Of a stretch of DNA of 64,000 bases, positions 13,662 through 59,032 are shown in pieces. Position numbers and translations under genes: made by a program. The stretch spans positions 35,618 to 99,617 of the forward strand of contig JACKOJ010000008.1 of the NCBI GenBank assembly GCA_024234325.1, written 5' to 3'. The notes beneath the pieces are model-generated. The model was not told the DNA's origin, searched no databases, and was given only the letters and a program-made list of their open reading frames with translations. Positions within the stretch are counted from its first letter, which is position 1; every line of letters begins with the position of its first letter. Origin of the DNA: Pseudomonadales bacterium (GTDB lineage Bacteria; Pseudomonadota; Gammaproteobacteria; Pseudomonadales; Pseudohongiellaceae).

Positions 13662-14390
13662 ATGAACACGCATCGCATTCTTACCTGTCTGCTGCTGGCC
13701 CTGAGTCTGGCAGCTCCCCTTGGTCACGCCCAGACTCCGACACCCCCTGACGGCACGTATATCTATGCGCCGCAGCGCAGCACCGGTGGCATCGGTCGCT
13801 TCTACATGGGCCGGGAGATTTCCGGCGTGATGGGACACCAGGCGGCCGGCTGGCTGGAGCGCCCCCAGCGCACCCATGAGGAAATGCCGGACGAGGTGGT
13901 TGCCAATCTGAATCTGAAGCCGACGGACGTGGTTGCCGACATCGGTGCCGGTTCGGGGTATTTCTCTTTCCGCATGGCGAAGCTGCTGCCCCAGGGCAAG
14001 GTGCTGGCGGTGGACATTCAGCCCGAGATGTTGACCCTGATCGAGAATCGCAAGACCAGCGAAGGCGTCAGCAACGTGGAAACCATCCTGGGTGCCATCG
14101 ACAATACCCATCTGCCCGCGAACTCCGTGGATCTCGTGTTGCTGGTGGATGCCTACCACGAATTCTCCCATCCCTGGGAGATGATGCAGAGCATGGTGTC
14201 CGCGATGAAGAGCGGCGGCAGGATCGTGCTGCTGGAGTACCGTGCGGAAGACCCCACCGTGCCCATTCGCCCGCTGCACAAGATGACTCAGGATCAGGTG
14301 AAGAAGGAAATGGGGGCGTTCGGCCTGCAGTTTGTCGAAACCCTGGACTTCCTGCCCTGGCAGCACATGATGATTTTCAGCAAGCCCTGA
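13662..14390 (+). CDS. Class I SAM-dependent methyltransferase fold with an N-terminal signal peptide
   Basis: Signal-like LLALSLAAPLGHAQ and motif I VADIGAGSGYF. 242 aa. Confidence 0.8.
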   Translation: MNTHRILTCLLLALSLAAPLGHAQTPTPPDGTYIYAPQRSTGGIGRFYMGREISGVMGHQAAGWLERPQRTHEEMPDEVVANLNLKPTDVVADIGAGSGYFSFRMAKLLPQGKVLAVDIQPEMLTLIENRKTSEGVSNVETILGAIDNTHLPANSVDLVLLVDAYHEFSHPWEMMQSMVSAMKSGGRIVLLEYRAEDPTVPIRPLHKMTQDQVKKEMGAFGLQFVETLDFLPWQHMMIFSKP

Positions 14391-14397
14391 GCGGCAG

Positions 14398-14841
14398 CTA
14401 GAGATAAATGATCTCGCCGCGCAGAGCGGCGAGTCGTTCCAGCAGCCGGTTCTGCGCCGCCAGAGTCACGCCCGCCTTGTTCATTGCCGCGATCAGGTCT
14501 TCCACGATCGCGTTGAAATCCCCTTCTGTGACATGCATTCCGACGTGGGTATCCACCATGGTGTCCCCTGTGTACTCGCAGGGGCCATCGCTGATCACGC
14601 ACAGATGTTCGCTGAACTTCTCACGAAAGCGCTGCACGTTGGAGACTTCAAAGTAGTGAATGACGCGTGCGTCGTTGGCGATTTCCAGAATGAACAGTTC
14701 CGTGATGCGGGAAATGCCCGGCTCGCCGCCCAATGCCCTGTACAGATTTGTCTGTGCGCCTGCTCCCGTGCAGGCGCACAGAGCAAGAGCGATGGTCAGG
14801 GCTGAGGCTTTTCGGAGGGTTTGCAGGAGAGGGCTGCTCAT
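14398..14841 (-). CDS. Group 1 truncated haemoglobin (trHbN-like) with a lipoprotein-type signal
   Basis: ALGG motif and proximal His in MVDTHVGMHVT. Gapless by-eye alignment over about 67 aa to remembered M. tuberculosis HbN. N-terminal LALCAC lipobox-like sequence. Confidence 0.8.
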   Translation of the reverse strand: MSSPLLQTLRKASALTIALALCACTGAGAQTNLYRALGGEPGISRITELFILEIANDARVIHYFEVSNVQRFREKFSEHLCVISDGPCEYTGDTMVDTHVGMHVTEGDFNAIVEDLIAAMNKAGVTLAAQNRLLERLAALRGEIIYL

Positions 14842-14843
14842 GA

Positions 14844-15683
14844 CTAGAAGGCTCCCTGAAAGGAGAGGTAGAACCCGTTCTGGTCACTGGCACCGGCGAT
14901 ATCTCCGAGACGAACCCAGGCGCCCGTGACGGAGAAGTGCTTGTTGGGAAACCAGGCCAGGAAAATATCGCTCGCACTGTCTTCCTTCAGGGCCAGCAGA
15001 TTGTCCGGTTTCTGGCGGTATTCGGCGCCGATCGCCAGGCGGCGACTGAGGAAGACAGCCGCAGCGGCTTCAAGTTGCAGAGTCCGGTCCTGATCGTCAC
15101 CGCCGTGACCAAGAATGCCGTACTGGTTGGCGCGGGAATAACGCAGGTTGATATTGATCATGCCGGTGCGATGCAGCGGTCCGTCGATCCAGGCGCGTGC
15201 CACACTGGCGTAGTAATCCGTGCCATCGTTCCTGGCGGCGCCCACGGCCTGTGCAGTGGCAGGATCGTGCAGATGATGGTGCTCAGCCCCGATCGCAATC
15301 TGGGGTATCCCGCCATAAACAAGGTCACCTGCCACTTTCAGCTTGAGCCCTGCGACATTCTGCCGAATCCTGCTGTCGTTGGCCTTGATGGTGAACTCGC
15401 GCTTTGCCAGCGAGAGTTCCAGGCGGTTGCGCAATGTGACGGCGGCACCGGCAACATCGAGCTGAAAGTCATCCACATCCGTACGCGTTACGAACGCGAC
15501 GGCTCCAAACTGATCCTGTGTTGCCAGTGAACTGAGTGTCGCCCAGGGGATCAGACCGCCGCCGCCGGCACCGCTGATGGAGCTGACGCCTCCGGTTCCG
15601 GTCAGGCGACCCTGTGCGAATGCCGCTTGCCCCCAGGGCAACAGGAACAGGACGAGCAGGGCAGAAGCAAGGATTCGGGGCAT
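14844..15683 (-). CDS. Probable outer-membrane beta-barrel protein (DUF3034-like as I recall that family)
   Basis: Signal peptide ending AFAQG, alternating beta-strand pattern, C-terminal ...YLSFQGAF. 4-nt gap to the upstream gene and 2-nt gap to the downstream gene. Confidence 0.6.
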   Translation of the reverse strand: MPRILASALLVLFLLPWGQAAFAQGRLTGTGGVSSISGAGGGGLIPWATLSSLATQDQFGAVAFVTRTDVDDFQLDVAGAAVTLRNRLELSLAKREFTIKANDSRIRQNVAGLKLKVAGDLVYGGIPQIAIGAEHHHLHDPATAQAVGAARNDGTDYYASVARAWIDGPLHRTGMININLRYSRANQYGILGHGGDDQDRTLQLEAAAAVFLSRRLAIGAEYRQKPDNLLALKEDSASDIFLAWFPNKHFSVTGAWVRLGDIAGASDQNGFYLSFQGAF

Positions 15684-15687
15684 CGCA

Positions 15688-16359
15688 TTACTCCGTTATC
15701 AGGGCGCGGAATCCGAACACCTGCGCCGGTTCTGCAATCGGGATTTGTATCGTGAACCTGCCTCCGGAGACCCCATCGATTGTGCGCACGATGCGCCGAT
15801 TGTCGGGGTCCTGGGACCAGGGGTGCCAGACGAGAACCTCGTCGGGCGTCTGGATATCCTCGAAGCGCGCAATCCCGTTGTCGTCACTGACGGCGAACTG
15901 CTGCCATTCACTGACGTAGATGTAACCCACCATGCTGTCATGAATGTTGCACCCCAGCACGGCGACACCCGCCTTGTCGAATTCGATGGGATTGCCGGGA
16001 ATGTCTGCATACAGTTCTGTTGAGAACTGCTTGATGGCGGAGAAGGAATACACATGGTGCCGAATGTTGTCATTGTTCGGAAAGTTGACACGCTGCCCGC
16101 GCTGCACGGCGATCACCATGGGGACGAAGTGCTTGTTTATCTGGTCAATGATGGCGACGGTCTCGGGGGCCCGGGTCACGGGATTGCGGGGGATTTCCAC
16201 TACTGCGTTGGCAACAGCCTTGCCCTGTTGATCCGTGACCAGAATCTCCAGATTGTCGCCATAGGCGGTGTTTGCAGCCATGAAAAATGAGCCTGCCAGA
16301 AATGGGAGGCATAGCAGAATGAACATCGGAACAACTATTTCCTGTAATAAACCCGTCAT
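15688..16359 (-). CDS. Amicyanin-like cupredoxin domain protein (often annotated 'methylamine utilization protein')
   Basis: N-terminal hydrophobic segment. Type-1 Cu ligand pattern: H in RHHVYSF, then GCNIHDSM (C-x2-H-x2-M) about 36 aa later. Confidence 0.7.
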   Translation of the reverse strand: MTGLLQEIVVPMFILLCLPFLAGSFFMAANTAYGDNLEILVTDQQGKAVANAVVEIPRNPVTRAPETVAIIDQINKHFVPMVIAVQRGQRVNFPNNDNIRHHVYSFSAIKQFSTELYADIPGNPIEFDKAGVAVLGCNIHDSMVGYIYVSEWQQFAVSDDNGIARFEDIQTPDEVLVWHPWSQDPDNRRIVRTIDGVSGGRFTIQIPIAEPAQVFGFRALITE

Positions 16360-16443
16360 GCGGGAGGTGGTGGCGACGAGCAGAACGCGGGGTATTGAAC
16401 GGGCAAGGGCGCGGCTATTCAGTCAGATACCGCGTATACGCTA

Positions 16444-16494
16444 CCGGGGAGGCAACGGATCAGATTATTGCAAAACTGTCCGTTGCCTCCCCGG
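16444..16494 (-). other. 16-bp perfect intercistronic hairpin between the TonB-dependent receptor and cupredoxin genes
   Basis: CCGGGGAGGCAACGGA / TCCGTTGCCTCCCCGG with a 19-nt loop. There is no U-tract in the transcribed sense. Confidence 0.6.
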
Positions 16495-16512
16495 CAGGAG
16501 AGGGGGAATGAA

Positions 16513-18657
16513 TCAGAATGTGGTGCGAATCTTCAGAGCCACTTTCTGACCGCCACCGGCGCTGCAGGAATCCTCAATCTCCGTCAGTGCGCTGACTGCA
16601 ACCAGGCCGTCGTAACGGTAGCGGTCGCGGCAGAAATCACTGCGCAGTGTGTTCATGGATTCCAGGCGGAACGTGACGTTATTGAACGCAACTTTGGAAA
16701 TGAACAATTGCAGGTTGGGACCAGGCAGGTTCTGTTCGATCGTGTCCACGTCGATGTCCTTCTCGCCTCCCGTAATTTCCGCACTGAAATTGAACCCGTA
16801 GTTCAGGCCCAGGGCGGGAATGTCGTGGCGGAAGCCCAGTTCAACATTGCCACGACGGTTGAAACGACGGTCGGCGTGCAGAATGGGGTCGTAGACGCTG
16901 GAGTCGAAGACGTTCAACGCGCTGGTCACCAGCGCATCGGGCATGCCCAGGAAGCCGAGGCGTGTGCTGGTATCGATGAAGATGCCGTAGCGAATGCCCG
17001 AGCCGACATTGCCGGTGGTGGAAACTGGCTTGGTCGGGTCGCTGGAGATATTCACCTTGCCGATGATGTCGTCGATGTCGCGGAAGAACAGGCGTGAATT
17101 GACGACACCGCCATCATTGGGCAGGCGGTATTGCAGGCCCAGCTCGTAGCGGATTTCTTTCTCCTGGCGCAGGTCGGGGTTGCCCAGGTTGGTGTCCTTG
17201 GATGTATCCGAATTGTTGGTGGTCGCCGTGAAGCTCTCGAAGCTCAACTGGGAAACTGCGCGCTCTACGGTCGCACGCAGTTGCAGTGAGGGGTTGAGGT
17301 CAAAACGGTAATCCACTTTCGGGCGCAGGAAACCGAAATCGCGGCTGCGCTTGGCGACGCCGGTCTGATCAATGGTTGACGCCTCGTAGAGCAGGGTGCT
17401 CTCAAGGGTCATGCGCTCGTTCAGGGTCCAGTTGTGCACGGCAAAGCCTTCGTAGCGCATTTCCTGCACCGTGGAGCCGGCATTGGACGCGCTGAGTACG
17501 GGAGGCAGATTGCCGAATTCCGGTCGTGCGGCACCAGAGGCGGAGGACGAACCCAGGTACAGGGCGGTGTCCAGAATCGTCTGTGCGCGCTCCAGGCCCA
17601 GTTGCATGTCCTGCCCCTCACTCAGGTTCCAGCTATAGGAGGCCTGGGCGATGCGCTCGCGCGTGCGCTTGTCGGAACGAAGATACTGATTCAGGTCATG
17701 GGCATCGTTCAGCGTGGTGTAGCGCTCGCGAACACTGTTGCGAATCTCGTTATTGGTAATGAACAGGAACTGGAAGCGGCTGCCGCTGGTGAAATTGTGT
17801 TCGTAATTGCCGCCAATTTCCCAGTTGTTTTCTTCGCGATCCGTCAGCTCCTGTTCGGATTTGGTAATGACCGAGAGATCGGATCCGAGGAAGTTCCTGC
17901 GGTTTACAGTGTTGGGATGGCTGCCGTCAGAATACAGGGCGTTGAACTGAATGCGGTCGCGCTCGAAGTCGTAGCCCAGGTTCATGGTGGTTTGCACCGC
18001 ATCCTGATCGCGGCGGTTGGATTCCTTCACCAGCTCGGTCAGCGTCAGGTCCGGAGAATAGTTGTACTCGGTCCGCATGTAGGAGTTATAGCGGGGGTCG
18101 AGCTGCAGGCCGAACAGGTAGTTCAGGTTGCCGGTCTGGCCGCCATAGGAAACCGAGGCACCGGGATCCACCTTGTCGTCGTGATGGTAGTCCATGTTGA
18201 CTTCGGCAGACAGGCTGGAGCGGCTCAGGGCTTCCTTGAGCACGACATTCACTACCTGGCTGGCGCCACGGACATCCAGCGCGCCGGAGCTGCCGCGGAT
18301 GATTTCGATGCGGTCCACCTGATCAGCGGCGATACGCTGCAACTGGTCGTTGGCGGAGTTGTCCTTGCCGGCGAGGCGTTTGCCGTTAATCAGCAGGTCG
18401 CCGCCAGAGCCGAGGCCGCGGTTGTTGCCGCCGCCCCGTCTGTTGTCCAGGTTGACCCCGGGAATACGGGCAATCATGTCATTGGCAGATACGGGTGTGT
18501 ACTGATCGAAGAATGACGCTTCGTAGACGACGGTGGTGTCATCACCACCGGCTTCCTGCGCCTGCAGATGCGTGGCGGCAAGGATGGATGCTGTAAGTGC
18601 GGTAAGTCTTAATGTGTTGCGAAATGCAGGCTGAAAAAACAACTGCCCCATTGTCAT
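16513..18657 (-). CDS. TonB-dependent outer-membrane receptor
   Basis: 714 aa. Signal peptide, plug-region motifs (IEIIRGSSGALDVRGASQVVNVV), and a terminal ...KIRTTF aromatic residue. Confidence 0.9.
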   Translation of the reverse strand: MTMGQLFFQPAFRNTLRLTALTASILAATHLQAQEAGGDDTTVVYEASFFDQYTPVSANDMIARIPGVNLDNRRGGGNNRGLGSGGDLLINGKRLAGKDNSANDQLQRIAADQVDRIEIIRGSSGALDVRGASQVVNVVLKEALSRSSLSAEVNMDYHHDDKVDPGASVSYGGQTGNLNYLFGLQLDPRYNSYMRTEYNYSPDLTLTELVKESNRRDQDAVQTTMNLGYDFERDRIQFNALYSDGSHPNTVNRRNFLGSDLSVITKSEQELTDREENNWEIGGNYEHNFTSGSRFQFLFITNNEIRNSVRERYTTLNDAHDLNQYLRSDKRTRERIAQASYSWNLSEGQDMQLGLERAQTILDTALYLGSSSASGAARPEFGNLPPVLSASNAGSTVQEMRYEGFAVHNWTLNERMTLESTLLYEASTIDQTGVAKRSRDFGFLRPKVDYRFDLNPSLQLRATVERAVSQLSFESFTATTNNSDTSKDTNLGNPDLRQEKEIRYELGLQYRLPNDGGVVNSRLFFRDIDDIIGKVNISSDPTKPVSTTGNVGSGIRYGIFIDTSTRLGFLGMPDALVTSALNVFDSSVYDPILHADRRFNRRGNVELGFRHDIPALGLNYGFNFSAEITGGEKDIDVDTIEQNLPGPNLQLFISKVAFNNVTFRLESMNTLRSDFCRDRYRYDGLVAVSALTEIEDSCSAGGGQKVALKIRTTF

Positions 18658-18948: not shown

Positions 18949-20619
18949 ATGCAGCGCGAATCAATGGAAGTGGATGTAGTGATTGTCGGAGCCGGGCCAG
19001 CCGGGCTCTCCACTGCCTGTCGCCTGTTGCAACTTGCTGCCGAAGCCCAGGCCGAGATCAGCGTCTGTGTGCTGGAAAAGGGCTCCGAGGTCGGGGCACA
19101 TATCCTCTCTGGCGCAGTATTTGAAACCAGCGCACTTGATGAGCTCTTCCCCGACTGGAAGGACCGTGGCGCTCCCCTGAACACCGCGGTCACGGGCGAT
19201 GACGTCTACTATCTGTCCGGCCCGGAAAAGGGCATTCGCTTCCCGGGCCTGCTGGTGCCGCGTCCGATGCACAACGATGGCAACTACATCATCTCCCTGG
19301 GCAATCTCTGCCGCTGGCTGGCGGAGCAGGCGTCAGAGCTCGGCGCCGAAATTTTCCCGGGCTTCGCTGCTGCGGAAATCCTGTATCACGAAGATGGCAG
19401 TGTAAAAGGCGTTGCCACCGGTGATATGGGGGTGGATGCCGAGGGACAGCACAAGGACAGTTTCGAGCCCGGTTTCGAGTTCCACGCCAAATACACCATT
19501 TTTGCCGAGGGTTGCCGCGGTCATCTGGGCAAGGAGCTGATCAAGCGTTTCAATCTGGACGCCAATGCCGACCCGCAGCACTATGGCATCGGCTTCAAGG
19601 AGATCTGGGAGATCCCGCCCGAAAAGCACAAGGAAGGCCTCGTGGTGCATACCGCCGGTTACCCGATGGTGGGGGCGAGCTATGCTGGTTCCAGCGGCGG
19701 CTATCTCTATCATTTTGAAAACCATCAGGTCTCCCTCGGCCTCATCGTGGACCTCGCCTACAGCAATCCGCATATCAGCCCGTTCGACGAGTTCCAGAAG
19801 TTCAAGCAGCACCCCGTCATCCGGCAGTATATCGAGGGTGGCAAGCGGGTCAGCTACGGTGCCCGCGCGCTCAACAAGGGGGGGCTGAACTCCCTGCCCC
19901 GGATGCATTTCCCCGGCGGCCTGCTGATCGGCTGTGACGCCGGCACCCTGAACGCGGCCAAGATCAAGGGCAGTCATACGGCAATGAAATCCGGCATGCT
20001 GGCGGCGGAAACGCTGTTCGAGTCCCTGCAGTCTGTGGCAGAGGGGGGGGAGGTTCAGAAAGATCTCGACACCTATGCGGCGCGCTTCAAGGCATCCAGC
20101 CTTTATGCGGAGCTGTATAAAACGCGCAATTTCAGTGCCGGTTTCCACAAGTTGGGTTTCTGGCTGGGCAGTGCGCTGGTGTTTCTGGAGCACAATATTC
20201 TTGGCGGTCGTTTCCCCATGACCTTCCGAGACAGGACGCCGGATTACGCACAGTTGAAACCTGCTGCCCAGTGTCCCCGAATCGACTACGCGAAGCCTGA
20301 CGGCAAGATCAGTTTTGACAAGCTCTCCTCGGTGTTCCTGTCCAACACCAATCATGAGGAGAATCAGCCCTGTCATCTGAAGCTGCTTGACCCTTCCATT
20401 CCCATCGGGAAGAACCTGCCGCTCTACGACGAGCCGGCGCAGCGCTATTGCCCTGCCGGGGTGTATGAAGTCGTGAGCGAGGCGGATGGCAGTCACCGTT
20501 TCCAGATCAATGCGCAGAACTGCGTGCACTGCAAGACCTGCGATATCAAGGACCCGGCACAGAATATCCAGTGGGTGGCGCCCGAGGGTGGGGGCGGCCC
20601 GAATTACCCGAACATGTAA
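18949..20619 (+). CDS. Electron-transfer flavoprotein:ubiquinone oxidoreductase (ETF-QO)
   Basis: 556 aa. FAD motif VIVGAGPAGLS and a C-terminal 4Fe-4S region CVHCKTCDIKDP...PEGGGGPNYPNM. Confidence 0.92.
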   Translation: MQRESMEVDVVIVGAGPAGLSTACRLLQLAAEAQAEISVCVLEKGSEVGAHILSGAVFETSALDELFPDWKDRGAPLNTAVTGDDVYYLSGPEKGIRFPGLLVPRPMHNDGNYIISLGNLCRWLAEQASELGAEIFPGFAAAEILYHEDGSVKGVATGDMGVDAEGQHKDSFEPGFEFHAKYTIFAEGCRGHLGKELIKRFNLDANADPQHYGIGFKEIWEIPPEKHKEGLVVHTAGYPMVGASYAGSSGGYLYHFENHQVSLGLIVDLAYSNPHISPFDEFQKFKQHPVIRQYIEGGKRVSYGARALNKGGLNSLPRMHFPGGLLIGCDAGTLNAAKIKGSHTAMKSGMLAAETLFESLQSVAEGGEVQKDLDTYAARFKASSLYAELYKTRNFSAGFHKLGFWLGSALVFLEHNILGGRFPMTFRDRTPDYAQLKPAAQCPRIDYAKPDGKISFDKLSSVFLSNTNHEENQPCHLKLLDPSIPIGKNLPLYDEPAQRYCPAGVYEVVSEADGSHRFQINAQNCVHCKTCDIKDPAQNIQWVAPEGGGGPNYPNM

Positions 20620-20705
20620 ACGCTCCCAGCGCCGGGCAGGGTGACTTGCCAAGCCGATCTGTCGCAGAGTACCCTCAAGGGGTGCTTGCAGACGGAGCGT
20701 TTATC

Positions 20706-22265
20706 ATGCGTGTATTGCTGGTCCTCATCGCCCTTGTCGCCTTGCAGAGCCAGGCGGCGGAAGAGCAGACGCTTGCCACCGCCCGCTGGTTCACCGTGCA
20801 GACCGAAAACTTCGACTTTTTCTCCCGTCTTTCCCGCGAGCAGACAGAGCAGCGTGCACTGGCATTTGAACAGTGGCGCCAGGCAGCGCTTGAGGTGCTG
20901 GGCGTGGCCGACACCCAGTCACGGGACCCCATCAGAACAGCGATCTATCTGTTTGAAGACGACGGCGATTTTGCCCTGTTTGCCGACAACAACGATCCCG
21001 CCTATCTCTACTCTTCACCTCGCGAGAACTTCATCATCGCCCGCAACAGCGATGCAGGTTTTGACCTGGCTCAGCACCACTATGCGCATTTCCTCATCAA
21101 CAACAATCCGGCGGGAGTGCCGCGTTGGTATGAAGAGGGTATGGGGCAGTACCTTGGGCGCCTGGAGGCGACCCGGGACGGCATCGAGTTGCGCGCGCTG
21201 ACAGCAGAGGAAACTGCGGTCGCCGCAGCGTTCAACCGGGAGCTGGGCATGGATGAACTGCTGTACGACGATGCAGCGCTGGCGTCTCCCCGCCAGATCC
21301 AGATTGCCAATCTCAAGGCTGCCTTTCTGGTGCAGTTTCTGCTGCATGGGCACGAACACGATGGCTTCGCCGATCGTCGCGACGTGCTGCGCCGCTATCT
21401 CGAATTTCTGCAGCAGGGGCGCAACGATCGTTTCGCCTATGACCAATCGTTCAAGGTCTCTGTAAGGCGCCTGAGCAGAGAGTTTGAGGACTACCTGGAT
21501 GCGCTGCAGAAGAAACCGGACGAGACCCATATCGTGTTCCCCGTAACACCCGTTCCGGAACTGCAGGTGCGTGAGATTGTGGGTGACGAAGTGGAGCTGG
21601 CGCTGGCCGAGCTGGCGCTGTTCTCCGGCCGCTTTCCCATGGCCAGGTTTCTGTTTGATGGCCTGAAGGGCTCGGAGCTTGCCGGTGGGCGTGCCTGGTC
21701 CGGTTTTGCGGACGCAATCCGCATGAGCGAGGATGGCCAATTCATCGCGGTGAACGAGGCGCCGGTTGCGGATGACCTCGAATCTCTTTATGAACAAGCC
21801 ATTGCCGTGTCTCCCCAGGACTACCAGTTGTATCTCGACTTTGGTCAGTTTTACGACGCGAGCCTGAGCGATTGTCAGCGCCCCCTGGATGCTGCTGAAC
21901 GTCAGCGCATGGAGAACGAAATGGCGCGCCGTTTCGGGGAAGCTCTGGCGCTGAATCCGGAGCCGGCAGAGGTCAATCTGTCCTATGCGCAACTGTTCCT
22001 GCTGGAAGGGAAAGACTGGCACGAAGGTCTTGTTTACCAGGATAAGGCCTTTGCACTGCTGCCTTCCGATACCTTTGTGCTGGAGCAGCAGATCGAGTAT
22101 GCCATTGCGGCCAGGGATTTTGACCGTGCCGAGGCCCTGATAGCCCGTATGGCGCGTCCGATGCATTTTCTGGGGGATGCGCCCTGGATCAGTGAACTGA
22201 GAGAGAGGCTGCGGGCGGCCAGGCGGGGCAGGGCCTTCGACCCTTGCGCCGAGGTCATGCCCTAG
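20706..22265 (+). CDS. Exported protein: degenerate gluzincin (MA)-like region plus C-terminal TPR-like helical repeats
   Basis: Start trimmed to MRVLLVLIALVALQSQA (signal peptide); the track start at 20571 overlaps ETF-QO. HHYAH occupies the HExxH position, followed by WYEEGMGQY. Confidence 0.6.
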   Translation: MRVLLVLIALVALQSQAAEEQTLATARWFTVQTENFDFFSRLSREQTEQRALAFEQWRQAALEVLGVADTQSRDPIRTAIYLFEDDGDFALFADNNDPAYLYSSPRENFIIARNSDAGFDLAQHHYAHFLINNNPAGVPRWYEEGMGQYLGRLEATRDGIELRALTAEETAVAAAFNRELGMDELLYDDAALASPRQIQIANLKAAFLVQFLLHGHEHDGFADRRDVLRRYLEFLQQGRNDRFAYDQSFKVSVRRLSREFEDYLDALQKKPDETHIVFPVTPVPELQVREIVGDEVELALAELALFSGRFPMARFLFDGLKGSELAGGRAWSGFADAIRMSEDGQFIAVNEAPVADDLESLYEQAIAVSPQDYQLYLDFGQFYDASLSDCQRPLDAAERQRMENEMARRFGEALALNPEPAEVNLSYAQLFLLEGKDWHEGLVYQDKAFALLPSDTFVLEQQIEYAIAARDFDRAEALIARMARPMHFLGDAPWISELRERLRAARRGRAFDPCAEVMP

Positions 22266-22297
22266 CGCCCACAAGAGAAACAAGCAGGAGTCCTGTT

Positions 22298-23728
22298 ATG
22301 CGATTCCTTATGCGGGCCGGTATCTGTGCACTGGTGCTTTGCGGCACTGGTGCCCATGCCGGCATTCTGGATCCGGAAAGCGAAGCGAACCCGGCGCTGG
22401 CAGCCATTGCCGATACGCTGGAGAGCCAGGGTCTGGACATTGCCTTCAATCTCAACCTGCGCGAGCTGGCATCGCGCACGCCCGTACGGCCCCGTGTCGG
22501 CCAGCTTGCCGATCTTCCCGCCATGAGCCTGCCTTTGAGTCCCGAACTGCTGCAGTGGGAGCAAGCCTTCGCGCGCGGAGAAATTGGCGTGCTGGCGCTG
22601 TTGCCTGCTGCAGAAGGCCTGCCCCTGTCTCAAGCGGTCTTCTATCCCCACTGGCTGGCGGCAGCACCTGAGAGCCGTATGCTGATCAGCTACGCGTCCG
22701 GGGACGCGGATCTGGCCGCCGCGCTTGCGGCAGCGCTGGGAGACGAGCTGTCGGTCCTGCTTCTTGCGCCGGGAGATGGAGAACTGCCGGAGCAGGCCGG
22801 CCGTCTTTATGCCGTCGCCGGGCAGCGCTGGGTGCTCGATTCCGTGGCGGCCCGAGAGTACCGCAGCGAAATTCCGGAATTTCAGTATCTGGGGGAAAGC
22901 CTGCGTCGCGACAGCGATTCGGTGTTGAACCCCGACAGCCGAGCCAACCGGCGCCTGGCGTCTGCGGAACCCGCCATCTTTCTGAAGGAGAGTCTGGGAG
23001 ACGAATTCGAGGCTTCCACCATCCCCGAGATCATTGTGCCGGGCGGTATCGCCTTCGGCGAGACGGCCACGTTTCCCGTGAGCGATCTTGCGTTGAGGTT
23101 CGAGCAGCAACGCCTGTGGCTGATGGACGGCGACGGCGTGCGTTACTCTCTGCCGCAGGAGGCCTTGCCGCTCTGGAAAGCCGCCTACGATTTTTCGGCA
23201 AGGTCGTCACGGATCGACTCCGACGCGATTGTGGACATAGACGAGAGAGGGCGGGTGCGCATTTCCTCAGCGCTTGAAGACACTGATCTTGGCTACGATC
23301 TGGTGCGTATTGACACGGAGCCCTTCAACTACGTCCAGCGCCTGGATGTGCGCAAGAGCGTCATCATTGACAGTCGGGTTCAGTTTGACAGTCAGGGTGA
23401 GGCGATGGACTTCACGACGGACTACGAGGTGCGTTTCCTGCAGGCGGACCGCATGCGTATTGCGCGCACCCAGGCAGCCATTGTGTACCGCTATCGCTCG
23501 CTCGATGGCGGTATCACCCATATCGATGACTGGGGGCCGGAGGCCTTCAAGCTGGAAGGTCGCACCGACTTCGACGGGCTTGGCGACAGCACCCTTCCAG
23601 CGGCACGTTATGCCGCCTGGATTGCGCTGTTCCGGAGTGTGCACGAGCAGACGCTGCCCTTCACCTACGGGCGTTATGAATTCCTCAAACTGGAGAAGGC
23701 AGGCCGGGCGACGCCTGCCAGAATGTGA
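22298..23728 (+). CDS. Exported protein of unknown function
   Basis: Start trimmed to MRFLMRAGICALVLCGTGAHA (signal peptide). 476 aa with no motif I recognise. The stop overlaps the next start (GTGA). Confidence 0.6.
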   Translation: MRFLMRAGICALVLCGTGAHAGILDPESEANPALAAIADTLESQGLDIAFNLNLRELASRTPVRPRVGQLADLPAMSLPLSPELLQWEQAFARGEIGVLALLPAAEGLPLSQAVFYPHWLAAAPESRMLISYASGDADLAAALAAALGDELSVLLLAPGDGELPEQAGRLYAVAGQRWVLDSVAAREYRSEIPEFQYLGESLRRDSDSVLNPDSRANRRLASAEPAIFLKESLGDEFEASTIPEIIVPGGIAFGETATFPVSDLALRFEQQRLWLMDGDGVRYSLPQEALPLWKAAYDFSARSSRIDSDAIVDIDERGRVRISSALEDTDLGYDLVRIDTEPFNYVQRLDVRKSVIIDSRVQFDSQGEAMDFTTDYEVRFLQADRMRIARTQAAIVYRYRSLDGGITHIDDWGPEAFKLEGRTDFDGLGDSTLPAARYAAWIALFRSVHEQTLPFTYGRYEFLKLEKAGRATPARM

Positions 23729-24927
23729 TTGTGATGAGTGTTGAAAAATCTCTGACAAGAATCGTATTGCTTGGCTTCATGTGCCTGCTGCTGCCGGCGT
23801 GCAATTTCGCCCGTCTGGACATGGATTTTTCAGCCGACCGCCGCTTTGAGAATCGTATTCTTGACCAGAAGCAGGACATGTTTGCGGATGTCGATCCCAT
23901 GGCCCTGAACCAGGAGATCATCGATTACATCGAGGAGCATGTGCGCAACCGGACCTCGTCGATGAAGATCGTCGATCAGCTTCAGACTCTGCTGTTCGAC
24001 CCGGAGTTTCTCAATATCGAGTACGATGACCAGATTACCCGGACCGCCATCGGGACGTTCGAGGATCGCCGCGGCAATTGCCTGTCTGTGGTCAATCTTT
24101 ACATTGCCATGGCCCGGCACTTCGGGGTGGATGCCCGCTTTCAGACCGTAAAGGTACGCCCGAGCTGGGATCGTCGAGGCGAGATGCTGGTGCTCAGTCA
24201 GCATATCAATGCCATCGGGCGCTTCAGTCAGAGCACCATGTACGTGGTGGACTTTACGCCGGAGATCACCTTGCAGCAGCTCACCGCCAGCACGGTTGAT
24301 GATCGCGAGGCGCGCGCCCTGTACTTCAATAACCTGGGTGTGGAGGCGTTGATTCTCAACGACTACGACACCTCTGTGGCCTATTTCAAGAACGCGCTTT
24401 TTCTGGACCCCAAGCTCTCCATCGCCTGGAACAATATTGCAACCGCCTACAGCCGAATGGACGACAAGGAGATCGCCGAGTACGCCTATCGCAAGGCCTA
24501 CACGCTGGATCAAAGCAATGCCACTGCCATCAACAATCTGGTCAAGTATTACAACAGCATCGGCGATACCGAAACCGCCGAGCGCTACAGCCGGGCCATC
24601 GAGCGCTTCAACAACAGAAACCCGTATTTTCATTACACACAGGGCAATCTTGCCTACGCCGACGGAAACTACGAGCTGGCAAGAGACCACTACCGGGAAG
24701 CGATTCGACGTAAGGATGCCGAGCCGGATTTCTACCTGGCGCTGAGTAAAACCTACGAACAACTGGGCAATGCGGAAGAAGCGACCAGAATGTATGACAT
24801 GGCACGTCTTATCGTGATCGCCATGGGCGATATGTATCTTCCAAGCAAGAACAAGGTGCGTATTGTGGATGACAAGAGCATCCTGCGCTCCACCAGTACA
24901 GGAATCAGCGTGCGCACCAGCCGTTGA
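23725..24927 (+). CDS. Lipoprotein with a transglutaminase-like Cys protease core and TPR repeats
   Basis: LLPAC lipobox. Cys-His-Asp contexts RRGNCLS, SQHINAIG and YVVDF. Several TPR-like repeats (AWNNIATAYSRM..., AINNLVKYYNSIG..., YLALSKTYEQLG...). Start could be 23725, 23731 or 23734. Confidence 0.7.
   Translation: MIVMSVEKSLTRIVLLGFMCLLLPACNFARLDMDFSADRRFENRILDQKQDMFADVDPMALNQEIIDYIEEHVRNRTSSMKIVDQLQTLLFDPEFLNIEYDDQITRTAIGTFEDRRGNCLSVVNLYIAMARHFGVDARFQTVKVRPSWDRRGEMLVLSQHINAIGRFSQSTMYVVDFTPEITLQQLTASTVDDREARALYFNNLGVEALILNDYDTSVAYFKNALFLDPKLSIAWNNIATAYSRMDDKEIAEYAYRKAYTLDQSNATAINNLVKYYNSIGDTETAERYSRAIERFNNRNPYFHYTQGNLAYADGNYELARDHYREAIRRKDAEPDFYLALSKTYEQLGNAEEATRMYDMARLIVIAMGDMYLPSKNKVRIVDDKSILRSTSTGISVRTSR

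Positions 24928-53374: not shown

Positions 53375-59032
<5,658 letters not shown>

What the first reader, a model, noticed from the sequence alone, without database searches (positions are those of the whole stretch)
14398..18657. TonB-dependent receptor operon continuing into a blue-copper cupredoxin, a DUF3034-like OM protein and a haemoglobin lipoprotein
Seen in sequence: four same-strand genes. They are a TBDR (16513-18657), a cupredoxin after a 153-nt gap containing a 16-bp hairpin (15688-16359), an OM beta-barrel-like protein after a 4-nt gap (14844-15683), and a truncated haemoglobin after a 2-nt gap (14398-14841). All four carry export signals. The cupredoxin shows the amicyanin-type type-1 Cu ligand set: His in RHHVYSF, then Cys-x2-His-x2-Met in GCNIHDSM about 36 residues later. 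Established knowledge: amicyanin uses His53/Cys92/His95/Met98. TBDRs import metal chelates. Truncated haemoglobins are normally cytoplasmic O2/NO-handling proteins. Inference: this is an envelope-located metal (Cu or Fe/haem) acquisition or redox module that couples TonB-dependent import to a periplasmic electron-transfer protein and a haem protein. I know of no characterised system with this combination.
Basis: partly seen in the sequence, partly recalled or inferred. Interest (0 to 1): 0.7.

Follow-up and report, generated by a model that had tools for sequence, protein, structure and literature searches.

The report
Exported haemoglobin–cupredoxin–barrel cassette beside unrelated receptor
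The four genes are real, but the TonB-dependent receptor is only a chance neighbour: the other three (a blue-copper-type protein, a small outer-membrane barrel and a lipid-anchored exported truncated haemoglobin) are the accessory genes of a widespread, apparently undescribed envelope signalling operon that in most bacteria also encodes a membrane sensor making or breaking cyclic nucleotides.

Summary
Observation confirmed: four minus-strand genes, the 153-nt gap with a 16-bp hairpin, and the 4- and 2-nt junctions are all as described. Gene identities hold. The TBDR has a Plug domain and a TonB box. The cupredoxin has an amicyanin-like fold and His/Cys-x2-His-x2-Met invariant in 79 homologues. 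DUF3034 models as a 12-strand OM barrel. The fourth gene is a group-1 truncated haemoglobin with an invariant lipobox.

Interpretation only partly holds. Cupredoxin–DUF3034–globin co-occur in about 70 of 80 related loci. Their usual partner there is an inner-membrane sensor, not a TBDR. It has a dCache_3-like periplasmic domain, HAMP, and GGDEF-EAL or class III cyclase output. The TBDR is adjacent only in the window's own clade. Its orthologues in Pseudohongiella and in isolate LSUCC0112 sit in the same ETF-QO…methyltransferase block without the trio. Hairpins follow the TBDR stop in most relatives (T-tract in two).

The globin belongs to a large exported subfamily: signal peptide or lipobox, conserved Cys…GPC pair, proximal His kept, TyrB10/GlnE7/GlnE11 replaced by apolar residues.

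Best reading: an envelope haem/copper gas- or redox-sensing module, here without its sensor gene nearby. I found no literature on it.

The parts
16513..18657 (-). TonB-dependent receptor of unknown substrate. It is a separate unit and not part of the cassette.
   Evidence: Plug PF07715 6e-9. Orthologues carry PF00593 barrel hits. TonB box DDTTVVYEA and C-terminal ...KIRTTF are read from the sequence. Its orthologues sit in the same syntenic block without the trio. No Fur box above background and no riboswitch upstream.
16444..16494 (-). 16-bp perfect hairpin with a 19-nt loop, starting 19 nt after the TBDR stop. Probably the 3' end or boundary of the TBDR transcript. It has no T-tract.
   Evidence: dG -57.3 kcal/mol for the 153-nt spacer, z -5.8. 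Strong hairpins of unrelated sequence occupy the same position in most relatives, clearest in L001, L002, L004, L007 and L010, with T-tracts in L001 and L002. The only Rfam match is a sub-threshold miRNA family.
15688..16326 (-). Exported cupredoxin-like protein with a type-1 Cu site (H101, C137, H140, M143 in numbering from the ORF-maximal start at 16359). The cupredoxin core carries extra N- and C-terminal beta strands. NCBI names the family 'methylamine utilization protein'; JGI names it 'plastocyanin'.
   Evidence: The ligands are invariant in 79 homologues. W178-H179-P180 is also conserved. A homologue has a faint CarboxypepD_reg hit.
14844..15683 (-). DUF3034 outer-membrane 12-strand beta-barrel, preceded by a conserved Gly-rich N-terminal segment (G38, G41-43, W47).
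   Evidence: PF11231 3e-92. AlphaFold model with pLDDT 81 and 12 strands. Foldseek matches to FapF, OmpG, Omp33, the COG4313 channel, KdgM/NanC and autotransporter barrels at TM about 0.5. The C-terminus ...SFQGAF is read from the sequence.
14398..14841 (-). Lipoprotein group-1 truncated haemoglobin. Lipobox Cys24 with Thr at +2 predicts outer-membrane sorting. Proximal His99 is present. The distal pocket is apolar: Ile51 (B10), Phe72 (E7), Phe76 (E11). Cys81 and Cys88 are conserved.
   Evidence: PF01152 4.5e-13. Best PDB match is Tetrahymena trHbN at 1e-13, aligned without gaps, which allows the residue mapping.

Best explanation
The region holds two independent units. (1) A stand-alone TonB-dependent receptor gene of unknown substrate, ending in a strong hairpin. 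It belongs to a conserved housekeeping block running from ETF-QO through the TBDR to a methyltransferase, a CoA-transferase and a nitroreductase. (2) A three-gene operon that was relocated into the gap downstream of that TBDR in this lineage. It encodes a periplasmic type-1 copper cupredoxin, a 12-strand outer-membrane barrel (DUF3034) and an outer-membrane-anchored truncated haemoglobin.

These three genes are the accessory part of a widespread four-gene envelope signalling operon of Gammaproteobacteria. It is found in Pseudoalteromonas, Alteromonas, Methylophaga, Oceanospirillales, Cellvibrionales, Pseudohongiella and Xanthomonas. The fourth gene encodes an inner-membrane sensor. It has two transmembrane helices flanking a dCache_3-like periplasmic domain, then HAMP, then either GGDEF-EAL or a class III nucleotide cyclase.

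Inferred mechanism: the haem of the lipoprotein globin has a fully apolar distal pocket, which disfavours stable O2 binding. It binds a diatomic gas (NO is the best guess) or changes redox state in the periplasm. The cupredoxin exchanges electrons with it and/or docks on the sensor's periplasmic domain. The sensor then changes c-di-GMP or cNMP levels. DUF3034 holds or threads the globin at the outer membrane. In the window's lineage the sensor gene is not adjacent and is absent from the 64 kb. The trio therefore either reports to a sensor encoded elsewhere or acts alone as a periplasmic haem/copper redox pair.

Shown: gene identities, ligand conservation, folds, export signals, co-conservation, the sensor partnership, and the independence of the TBDR. 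Inferred: cofactor loading, the nature of the signal, the protein contacts, and the direction of signalling.
For: Co-conservation: cupredoxin, DUF3034 and globin occur together in about 70 of 80 loci from different orders with unrelated flanks. Architecture tally: 44 loci have cupredoxin-sensor-DUF3034-globin on one strand; 16 have a divergent sensor plus the trio; 10 have a TBDR plus the trio; 5-6 have cupredoxin plus sensor only. Junctions mostly overlap by 1-4 nt or more.

Sensor: its domains are dCache_3-HAMP-GGDEF-EAL in L038 and HAMP plus Guanylate_cyc in L019. The two types share a homologous periplasmic region (24% identity, E 9e-22) between two transmembrane helices. So the sensory input is constant and the output is swapped. 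The same four-gene operon occurs in Xanthomonas sp. GPE39 (L082) and in L086 and L087. A variant places an OmpR-type response regulator next to DUF3034-globin (L088).

TBDR independence: synteny without the trio; the two are unlinked within the LSUCC0112 genome; hairpins or terminators after the TBDR; no sensor homologue in the window.

Cupredoxin.

Globin: the lipobox Cys, the Cys81/Cys88 pair and His F8 are invariant, and B10/E7/E11 are apolar. Among 97 further single-domain relatives from a 1.84-billion-protein library, 79 sequences of the 98 (the window's included) have a lipobox and 14 a plain signal peptide. In that set 97 of 98 keep the Cys pair and 98 of 98 the proximal His, and none has Tyr at B10. 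Highly hydrophobic distal pockets are associated with very fast O2 dissociation in trHbs (PMC4720485).
Against: No experiment exists on any member. The signal, the contacts and even haem or Cu loading are inferred. In the window itself the sensor is missing, so the signalling role is extrapolated from relatives. The trio has been kept intact in the sensor-less clade at 47-65% cupredoxin identity, which argues for a function that does not strictly need an adjacent sensor. Gases do not need an outer-membrane channel, so the role of DUF3034 is unexplained by simple gas sensing. A type-1 Cu centre usually has a higher potential than a haem b globin, so the direction of any electron transfer is unclear. 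The loci were retrieved with the cupredoxin as bait, so the counts say little about DUF3034-globin pairs that lack a cupredoxin (L088 shows that these exist).
Confidence: 0.55

Rival explanations
1. All four genes form one TBDR-led operon for envelope metal (Cu, or Fe/haem) acquisition. The TBDR imports a chelate, and the cupredoxin and globin process it.
For: Same strand. Adjacency is kept across the window's clade (10-11 loci, TBDR identity 55-79%). The hairpin lacks a T-tract, so read-through is possible. No sigma-70-like promoter was found in the spacer.
Against: The adjacency is confined to one clade in which all flanking genes are also conserved, so it carries no functional information. 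Orthologous TBDRs sit in the same block without the trio. None of about 65 other loci has a TBDR next to the trio. Hairpins or terminators follow the TBDR stop in most relatives. There is no Fur box above background and no riboswitch.
Confidence: 0.07
2. The trio is a self-contained periplasmic redox or detoxification system. For example it might consume or buffer NO, nitrite or peroxide at a haem that is re-reduced or oxidised through the cupredoxin. The neighbouring sensor is merely co-regulated, or senses the same stress independently.
For: The trio persists intact without an adjacent sensor in the window's clade. Cupredoxins are classical periplasmic electron carriers to NirK and N2OR, which is established knowledge. 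The Foldseek hits include the cupredoxin domains of NirK and N2OR. Mycobacterial trHbN is an NO dioxygenase (established knowledge).
Against: The residues that support NO dioxygenase or O2 chemistry in trHbN (TyrB10, GlnE11) are replaced by aliphatic or aromatic residues throughout the subfamily. The cupredoxin is translationally coupled to the sensor gene, and 5-6 loci keep only cupredoxin plus sensor. That arrangement fits a binding-partner role like NspS-MbaA. The sensor input domain stays constant while the outputs vary.
Confidence: 0.2
3. DUF3034 is a dedicated translocator that displays the globin lipoprotein on the cell surface. There the globin captures external haem or another ligand, in a haemophore-like or surface-receptor role.
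For: DUF3034-globin is the tightest pair. It is always adjacent, often overlapping, and is retained without a cupredoxin in L088. The best structural matches of DUF3034 are 12-strand barrels that pass polypeptides: FapF, the autotransporters EstA, EspP and AIDA-I, and intimin/invasin. The conserved Gly-rich N-terminal segment is modelled with low confidence, as expected for a plug or linker.
Against: TM-scores are only about 0.5, and porins (OmpG, KdgM, NanC) match equally well. There is no evidence of surface exposure. The proximal-His globin pocket is that of a stable haem protein rather than a haem shuttle. This model assigns no role to the cupredoxin or the sensor.
Confidence: 0.1
4. A copper-homeostasis module. 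The cupredoxin-like protein would sequester or oxidise periplasmic Cu in the manner of CopI, with DUF3034 as a Cu channel.
For: Invariant Cys/His/Met site plus a further conserved His179. Weak P1B-ATPase-type matches of the N-terminal region in NCBIfam, at E about 0.05 and far below cutoff.
Against: No cop, cus or pco genes lie nearby in any locus. The site is a canonical electron-transfer type-1 ligand set. This model gives no reason for a haem protein partner.
Confidence: 0.05

Closest known systems
YfiBNR (TpbB) system of Pseudomonas aeruginosa and E. coli
   Same: The same envelope-spanning logic. An outer-membrane lipoprotein and a soluble periplasmic protein control an inner-membrane enzyme that has a periplasmic sensor domain, HAMP and GGDEF, and all are encoded in one operon. 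This comparison rests on my knowledge of YfiBNR; it is not tested here beyond the operon architecture.
   Different: I saw no sign of homology. YfiB is OmpA/Pal-like and YfiR is a small cofactor-less protein. Here the lipoprotein is a haem globin, the periplasmic protein is a Cu cupredoxin, and there is an additional outer-membrane barrel. The sensor also carries EAL, or a class III cyclase instead. The window has no sensor gene.
NspS-MbaA of Vibrio cholerae (a periplasmic binding protein plus a GGDEF-EAL sensor)
   Same: The gene for a periplasmic partner protein lies immediately upstream of, and is coupled to, a membrane-bound GGDEF-EAL protein with a periplasmic domain. The cupredoxin-sensor pair looks the same, and 5-6 loci contain only that pair.
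   Different: NspS is a polyamine-binding PBP-fold protein. Here the partner is a redox-type cupredoxin, and two further outer-membrane components are present.
Haem-based gas sensors coupled to c-di-GMP: H-NOX/HaCE, NosP, and the globin-coupled sensors DosC/DosP
   Same: A haem protein encoded next to a c-di-GMP enzyme. An apolar distal pocket lacking a Tyr H-bond donor is the feature known to exclude O2 in NO-selective H-NOX. That is established knowledge.
   Different: All of those are cytoplasmic and have a different fold or a 3/3 sensor globin. Here the haem protein is a 2/2 truncated globin, exported, lipid-anchored and probably disulfide-bonded, and the signal would be read in the periplasm.
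Amicyanin, pseudoazurin and plastocyanin (type-1 cupredoxins); MauL ('methylamine utilization protein')
   Same: The fold and the His...Cys-x2-His-x2-Met ligand loop of amicyanin length. The NCBI product name of the family presumably derives from MauL (the MauL link is recalled, not tested).
   Different: About 190 mature residues with extra beta strands on both sides of the core. No Pfam or NCBIfam cupredoxin model is matched. There are no mau genes nearby. The genomic partners are a sensor, a barrel and a globin.
Group-1 truncated haemoglobins (Tetrahymena, Paramecium, Mycobacterium HbN, Shewanella benthica HbN)
   Same: The PF01152 domain, with 1e-13 to 1e-8 matches to solved trHbNs. Proximal His F8 and Phe CD1 are conserved.
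   Different: Exported through a lipoprotein signal. A conserved Cys-x6-Cys pair is present. TyrB10, GlnE7 and GlnE11 are replaced by Ile/Leu/Val, Phe/Leu and Phe/Leu/Ile. Neither of the two trHb papers I searched for those terms mentions export. The only exported globin-fold protein that surfaced was the Tat-secreted latex-clearing protein Lcp of Gram-positives (PMC5522427; its globin fold and Tat secretion are recalled, not checked in the paper).

Membership tests
Type-1 (blue) copper cupredoxin | Greek-key beta-sandwich cupredoxin fold | tested here: met
   AlphaFold model pLDDT 87. Foldseek against the PDB gives amicyanin, pseudoazurin and plastocyanin at prob 1.0 and TMt about 0.7.
Type-1 (blue) copper cupredoxin | Ligand set His ... 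Cys-x2-His-x2-Met | tested here: met
   H101, C137, H140 and M143 are invariant in 79 sequences and in the Xanthomonas copy. H101 aligns with plastocyanin His37.
Type-1 (blue) copper cupredoxin | Match to curated sequence models (Pfam Copper-bind / Cupredoxin_1, NCBIfam) | tested here: not met
   No cupredoxin model is matched at E <= 0.1. PDB phmmer gives plastocyanin only at E 0.25, and the profile search gives NirK at E 0.89.
Type-1 (blue) copper cupredoxin | Binds Cu, with an absorption band near 600 nm and a narrow A-parallel EPR signal | not testable with these tools
   Needs purified protein.
MauL / methylamine utilization cluster | Homology to MauL and location in a mau gene cluster | tested here: inconclusive
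   Only the NCBI product name is available. I had no MauL reference sequence. No mau or MADH genes lie in the window or in any of the 88 loci.
Group-1 truncated haemoglobin (trHbN) | PF01152 2/2 globin domain with proximal His F8 and Phe CD1 | tested here: met
   His99 in 70 of 71 sequences (the other has a gap) and Phe64 in 71 of 71.
Group-1 truncated haemoglobin (trHbN) | Polar distal network (Tyr B10 with Gln/Leu E7 and Gln E11) that stabilises bound O2 | tested here: not met
   B10 is Ile, Leu or Val. E7 is Phe or Leu. E11 is Phe, Leu or Ile. The mapping comes from the ungapped alignment to Tetrahymena trHbN and its Y25F and Q50E mutants.
Group-1 truncated haemoglobin (trHbN) | Cytoplasmic location | tested here: not met
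   The lipobox Cys is invariant. In the wider set, 93 of 98 sequences have a lipobox or a signal peptide. Localisation itself has not been measured.
DUF3034 (PF11231) | Full-length match to the Pfam model | tested here: met
   3.4e-92, covering profile positions 1-255 of 255.
Outer-membrane beta-barrel | Signal peptide, even number of antiparallel strands, C-terminal aromatic residue | tested here: met
   The model has 12 strands. Foldseek hits are all outer-membrane barrels. The C-terminus ...QGAF is read from the sequence.
TonB-dependent receptor | Plug domain, TonB box, 22-strand barrel | tested here: met
   The Plug domain is matched. The TonB box DDTTVVYEA is read from the sequence. The barrel model PF00593 is not matched by the window protein itself, but it is matched by its 60-80%-identical orthologues.
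Accessory-protein-dependent periplasmic c-di-GMP/cNMP sensor system (YfiBNR-like logic) | Inner-membrane sensor enzyme encoded together with the periplasmic and outer-membrane accessory proteins | tested here: inconclusive
   Met in about 65 of 80 related loci. Not met in the window, where no sensor homologue occurs within the 64 kb.

The most novel reading that the evidence does not exclude
Gammaproteobacteria possess a previously undescribed extracytoplasmic haem/copper sensory system. An outer-membrane-anchored truncated haemoglobin, possibly held in or displayed through the DUF3034 barrel, detects NO, O2 or redox state outside the cytoplasm. It relays this through a dedicated blue-copper protein to dCache-type membrane sensors that set c-di-GMP or cAMP/cGMP levels. 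The exported, disulfide-bonded, apolar-pocket trHbNs would then be a functionally distinct globin class.
Probability: 0.35. Interest if true: 0.8.

Novelty: new variant of a known kind. Interest (0 to 1): 0.62.

Why it matters
Bacterial globins are generally treated as cytoplasmic proteins. Here there is a large, conserved subfamily that is exported and lipid-anchored, and that has lost the O2-stabilising distal residues. It is genetically wired to a dedicated cupredoxin, an outer-membrane barrel and a cyclic-nucleotide sensor.

If the inferred role holds, it would be the first periplasmic globin-based gas or redox sensor. It would also be a new input route into c-di-GMP control of biofilm and motility in marine bacteria and in plant-associated Xanthomonas.

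It would give DUF3034 and the mis-named 'methylamine utilization protein' family a testable function.

The analysis also corrects an attractive but wrong operon call: the TBDR is a positional neighbour only.

Tried and rejected
1. TBDR regulation. I looked for a Fur box upstream of the TBDR and of the cupredoxin. The best match is 11 of 19, which is within background. Rfam finds no riboswitch, only a sub-threshold miRNA hit on the hairpin.

2. Hairpin as a repeated element. It is not repeated elsewhere in the window.

3. Promoter or operator in the TBDR-cupredoxin spacer. An alignment of 11 spacers shows no shared promoter, only a recurring TGATCC(A) near the hairpins. The sigma-70 scan finds nothing there.

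4. Conserved flanking genes. The ABC, FtsX and DUF3299 genes are conserved only within Pseudoalteromonas. A Pst-like transporter lies upstream in L040, and an ABC ATPase of the same cluster lies next to the cupredoxin in L067. These are lineage-specific synteny.

5. Sensor homologue in the window. tblastn finds none. Pfam scans of the other large ORFs found no signalling protein.

6. Literature. I used ten searches covering DUF3034, lipoprotein or periplasmic globin, MauL/cupredoxin, methylamine utilization protein with diguanylate cyclase, and truncated haemoglobin with GGDEF or Xanthomonas. None described this cluster. A possible orthologue, XOC_2944 (a HAMP GGDEF-EAL protein of X. oryzae pv. 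oryzicola, PMC4823724), could not be verified because I have no sequence for it.

7. Sequence-only PDB searches were uninformative for the cupredoxin and the TBDR. Fold comparison was needed for the cupredoxin.

Full report
**1. Observation**

They are a 714-aa protein (16513-18657), a 223-aa protein (15688-16359), a 279-aa protein (14844-15683) and a 147-aa protein (14398-14841). They are separated by 153, 4 and 2 nt.

The spacer after the first gene contains a perfect 16-bp inverted repeat, with arms at 16479-16494 and 16444-16459 and a 19-nt loop. As RNA the spacer folds far better than shuffled sequence (-57.3 kcal/mol, z = -5.8). No run of U follows the hairpin.

Pfam assigns a Plug domain to the first protein, DUF3034 (3e-92) to the third and Bac_globin (4.5e-13) to the fourth. 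The second protein matches nothing.

**2. The four proteins**

*Receptor.* It has a signal peptide, a FepA-like TonB box (DDTTVVYEA) and a C-terminal Phe, all read from the sequence. Its 60-80%-identical orthologues carry the barrel domain PF00593. Nothing indicates a substrate. There is no Fur box above background and no riboswitch. By sequence it is only remotely similar to BtuB, through the plug.

*Cupredoxin.* The second protein belongs to a family of more than 5,000 sequences. NCBI calls the family 'methylamine utilization protein' and JGI calls it 'plastocyanin'. An AlphaFold model built on 47 homologues (pLDDT 87) matches amicyanin, pseudoazurin and plastocyanin at Foldseek probability 1.0. 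His101, Cys137, His140 and Met143 are invariant in 79 homologues. His101 aligns with the plastocyanin ligand His37. The most likely start is Met12 (16326).

*DUF3034.* It models as a 12-strand outer-membrane barrel (pLDDT 81). Its nearest solved structures are FapF, OmpG, Omp33, the COG4313 channel, KdgM/NanC and autotransporter barrels, at TM about 0.5.

*Globin.* The fourth protein is a group-1 truncated haemoglobin. Its best PDB match is Tetrahymena trHbN at 1e-13, aligned without gaps.

**3. The globin is an unusual one**

The lipobox cysteine (Cys24) is invariant in 71 sequences, and the +2 residue is never Asp. Cys81 and Cys88 (C-x4-G-P-C) are invariant. The proximal His99 and Phe CD1 are conserved.

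The ungapped alignment to Tetrahymena trHbN and its Y25F and Q50E mutants fixes B10 as Ile51, E7 as Phe72 and E11 as Phe76. Across the family these positions are Ile/Val/Leu, Phe and Phe/Ile/Leu.

I searched 1.84 billion representative proteins with the globin and recovered 97 further single-domain relatives. Counting the window's own sequence as well, 79 of 98 have a lipobox and 14 have a plain signal peptide. In that set 97 of 98 keep the Cys pair, 98 of 98 keep the proximal His, and none has Tyr at B10.

This is therefore a large subfamily with four shared traits. It is exported, it probably carries a disulfide bond, it keeps the residues needed to bind haem, and its distal pocket is fully apolar. 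In trHbs such pockets go with very fast O2 dissociation (PMC4720485). In H-NOX proteins the absence of a distal H-bond donor is what makes the haem NO-selective (established knowledge). Neither of the two trHb papers I searched for those terms (PMC4720485 and PMC11904497) mentions export.

**4. Gene neighbourhood**

A scan of species-representative genomes with the cupredoxin returned 80 loci. They come from Pseudohongiella, Pseudoalteromonas, Alteromonas, Methylophaga, Oceanospirillales, Cellvibrionales, Hahellaceae and others.

tblastn and ORF clustering show that cupredoxin, DUF3034 and globin travel together in about 70 loci with otherwise unrelated flanks. Their usual fourth partner, however, is not a TBDR.

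| Arrangement | Loci |
|---|---|
| Cupredoxin-sensor-DUF3034-globin on one strand | 44 |
| Divergent sensor plus the trio | 16 |
| TBDR plus the trio (window's clade only) | 10 |
| Cupredoxin plus sensor only | 5-6 |

- In the 44 one-strand loci, a gene of about 780 aa lies between the cupredoxin and DUF3034. Its junctions mostly overlap the neighbouring genes. It encodes TM, dCache_3, TM, HAMP, GGDEF and EAL.
- In the 16 loci with a divergent sensor, which are Pseudohongiella and its relatives, a gene of about 680 aa is transcribed divergently from the cupredoxin. It encodes a periplasmic domain, HAMP and a class III adenylate/guanylate cyclase.
- The two sensor types share a homologous periplasmic region between two transmembrane helices (24% identity, E 9e-22). 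The input is the same and the outputs differ.
- Looking up DUF3034 homologues independently gave the same four-gene operon in Xanthomonas sp. GPE39, where each junction overlaps by 4 nt. Two further assemblies show the same operon.
- One variant has an OmpR-type response regulator next to DUF3034-globin.

**5. The TBDR is a neighbour, not a member**

A TBDR precedes the cupredoxin only in the window's own clade (L001-L013 and L027). In that clade all flanking genes are also conserved, so the adjacency carries no functional information.

The orthologous TBDR of Pseudohongiella (P0200, L081) lies in the same block: TPR, ETF-QO, TBDR, methyltransferase, CoA-transferase, nitroreductase, beta-lactamase. 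There it converges directly on the methyltransferase gene, with no trio in between.

In the isolate LSUCC0112 the TBDR block is on scaffold SPIB01000005.1 (L084). The trio, with its cyclase sensor, is on SPIB01000002.1 (L014). The two are therefore unlinked within one genome.

The parsimonious reading is that the trio was transplanted into the gap between the TBDR and the methyltransferase in the window's lineage, leaving its sensor behind. Most relatives have a strong hairpin of unrelated sequence just after the TBDR stop, clearest in L001, L002, L004, L007 and L010. In L001 and L002 it carries a T-tract. This fits the 3' end of a monocistronic TBDR transcript.

No sensor homologue lies in the 64-kb window. 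Pfam scans of the other large ORFs found no other signalling protein.

**6. Mechanism (inferred)**

The constant features are:
- an exported type-1 Cu protein coupled to a periplasmic-domain sensor;
- an outer-membrane barrel coupled to an outer-membrane lipoprotein with a haem pocket;
- interchangeable cyclic-nucleotide outputs.

This is the logic of accessory-protein-dependent envelope sensors such as YfiB-YfiR-YfiN and NspS-MbaA, combined with the chemistry of haem gas sensors (H-NOX/HaCE, NosP).

I propose the following sequence. The globin haem binds a diatomic ligand, with NO favoured by the apolar pocket, or it changes oxidation state. The cupredoxin is its redox partner and/or the component that docks on the dCache_3-like domain. 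The sensor converts this into a change in c-di-GMP or cNMP. DUF3034 positions, or possibly threads, the lipoprotein.

In the window the output component is either encoded elsewhere or the trio works alone.

Confidence is high (about 0.85) for the structural and genomic statements: two units, and a conserved cassette whose normal partner is a sensor. It is moderate (about 0.5) for a sensory role and low for NO specifically.

**7. Rivals**

- A self-contained periplasmic redox or detoxification pair remains plausible, because the sensor-less clade keeps the trio intact. It fits poorly with the loss of the catalytic distal residues and with loci that contain only cupredoxin and sensor.
- A surface-display or haem-capture role for DUF3034 plus globin is suggested by the FapF and autotransporter-like fold matches. 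The TM-scores are modest, and porins match equally well.
- A copper-homeostasis role has no contextual support.

**8. Novelty**

Ten literature searches found no description of this cluster, of DUF3034 function, or of exported bacterial truncated haemoglobins. The library lacks most subscription journals, so prior mention cannot be excluded.

I rate this a new variant of a known kind: an accessory-protein-coupled envelope sensor with a haem-based input. The particular window shows only the sensor-less derivative next to an unrelated receptor.

Noticed in passing
window 13662-14390 (+): A SAM-dependent methyltransferase (Methyltransf_31/25/11) with an apparent N-terminal signal peptide (MNTHRILTCLLLALSLAAPLGHA|Q). 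It converges on the globin gene with a 7-nt gap. In Pseudohongiella and LSUCC0112 it is the conserved convergent neighbour of the TBDR. An exported SAM-dependent enzyme would be odd.
   Followed up: partly
window 16440-16500; L003, L004, L006, L010, L012, L013, L027 just after the TBDR stop: The hairpins downstream of the TBDR differ in stem sequence, but most contain or abut a shared TGATCC(A) motif. This could be a conserved 3'-UTR or processing element of the TBDR transcript.
   Followed up: no
P0361-P0373 and similar hits: Proteins with 3-10 tandem trHbN domains, up to 1,882 aa. P0361 has a signal peptide and three domains with the same Cys...GPC pair. P0369 is a lipoprotein with three domains.
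   Followed up: no
L088 4236-6651: A variant cassette: OmpR-type response regulator, DUF3034, globin and cupin_2, with no cupredoxin and no dCache sensor. It shows that DUF3034-globin is the minimal pair.
   Followed up: no
L021, L034, L039, L047, L065, L066 sensor genes: Many of the cassette-associated sensors lack a GG[DE]EF motif by a simple motif scan, yet still show an EAL-type motif. This suggests a phosphodiesterase-only output in those lineages. The Pseudoalteromonas copy (L038) keeps GGDEF.
   Followed up: partly
window 15688-16359 (-): NCBI's gene call for the identical protein (P0001, 197 aa) starts at Met27 and removes the signal peptide. Homologues are about 212 aa, which fits a Met12 start at 16326.
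   Followed up: yes
window 53375-59032 (-): A 1,885-aa protein with duplicated UvrA-like ABC modules (UvrA_inter, UvrA_DNA-bind and multiple P-loops). It is an unusually long UvrA paralogue.
   Followed up: no
window 20571-23728 (+): Two consecutive large ORFs (564 and 494 aa) with no Pfam match. They are followed by a transglutaminase-core/TPR protein (23725-24927), and that TPR gene is syntenic in Pseudohongiella.
   Followed up: no
L038 4060-6546: In Pseudoalteromonas a DUF3299 protein, an FtsX/MacB-type permease with a long His/Glu-rich insert (HAEAEHEHEHEH...) and an ABC ATPase lie just upstream of the cassette. Judging by the clustering, this is conserved only within that genus.
   Followed up: partly
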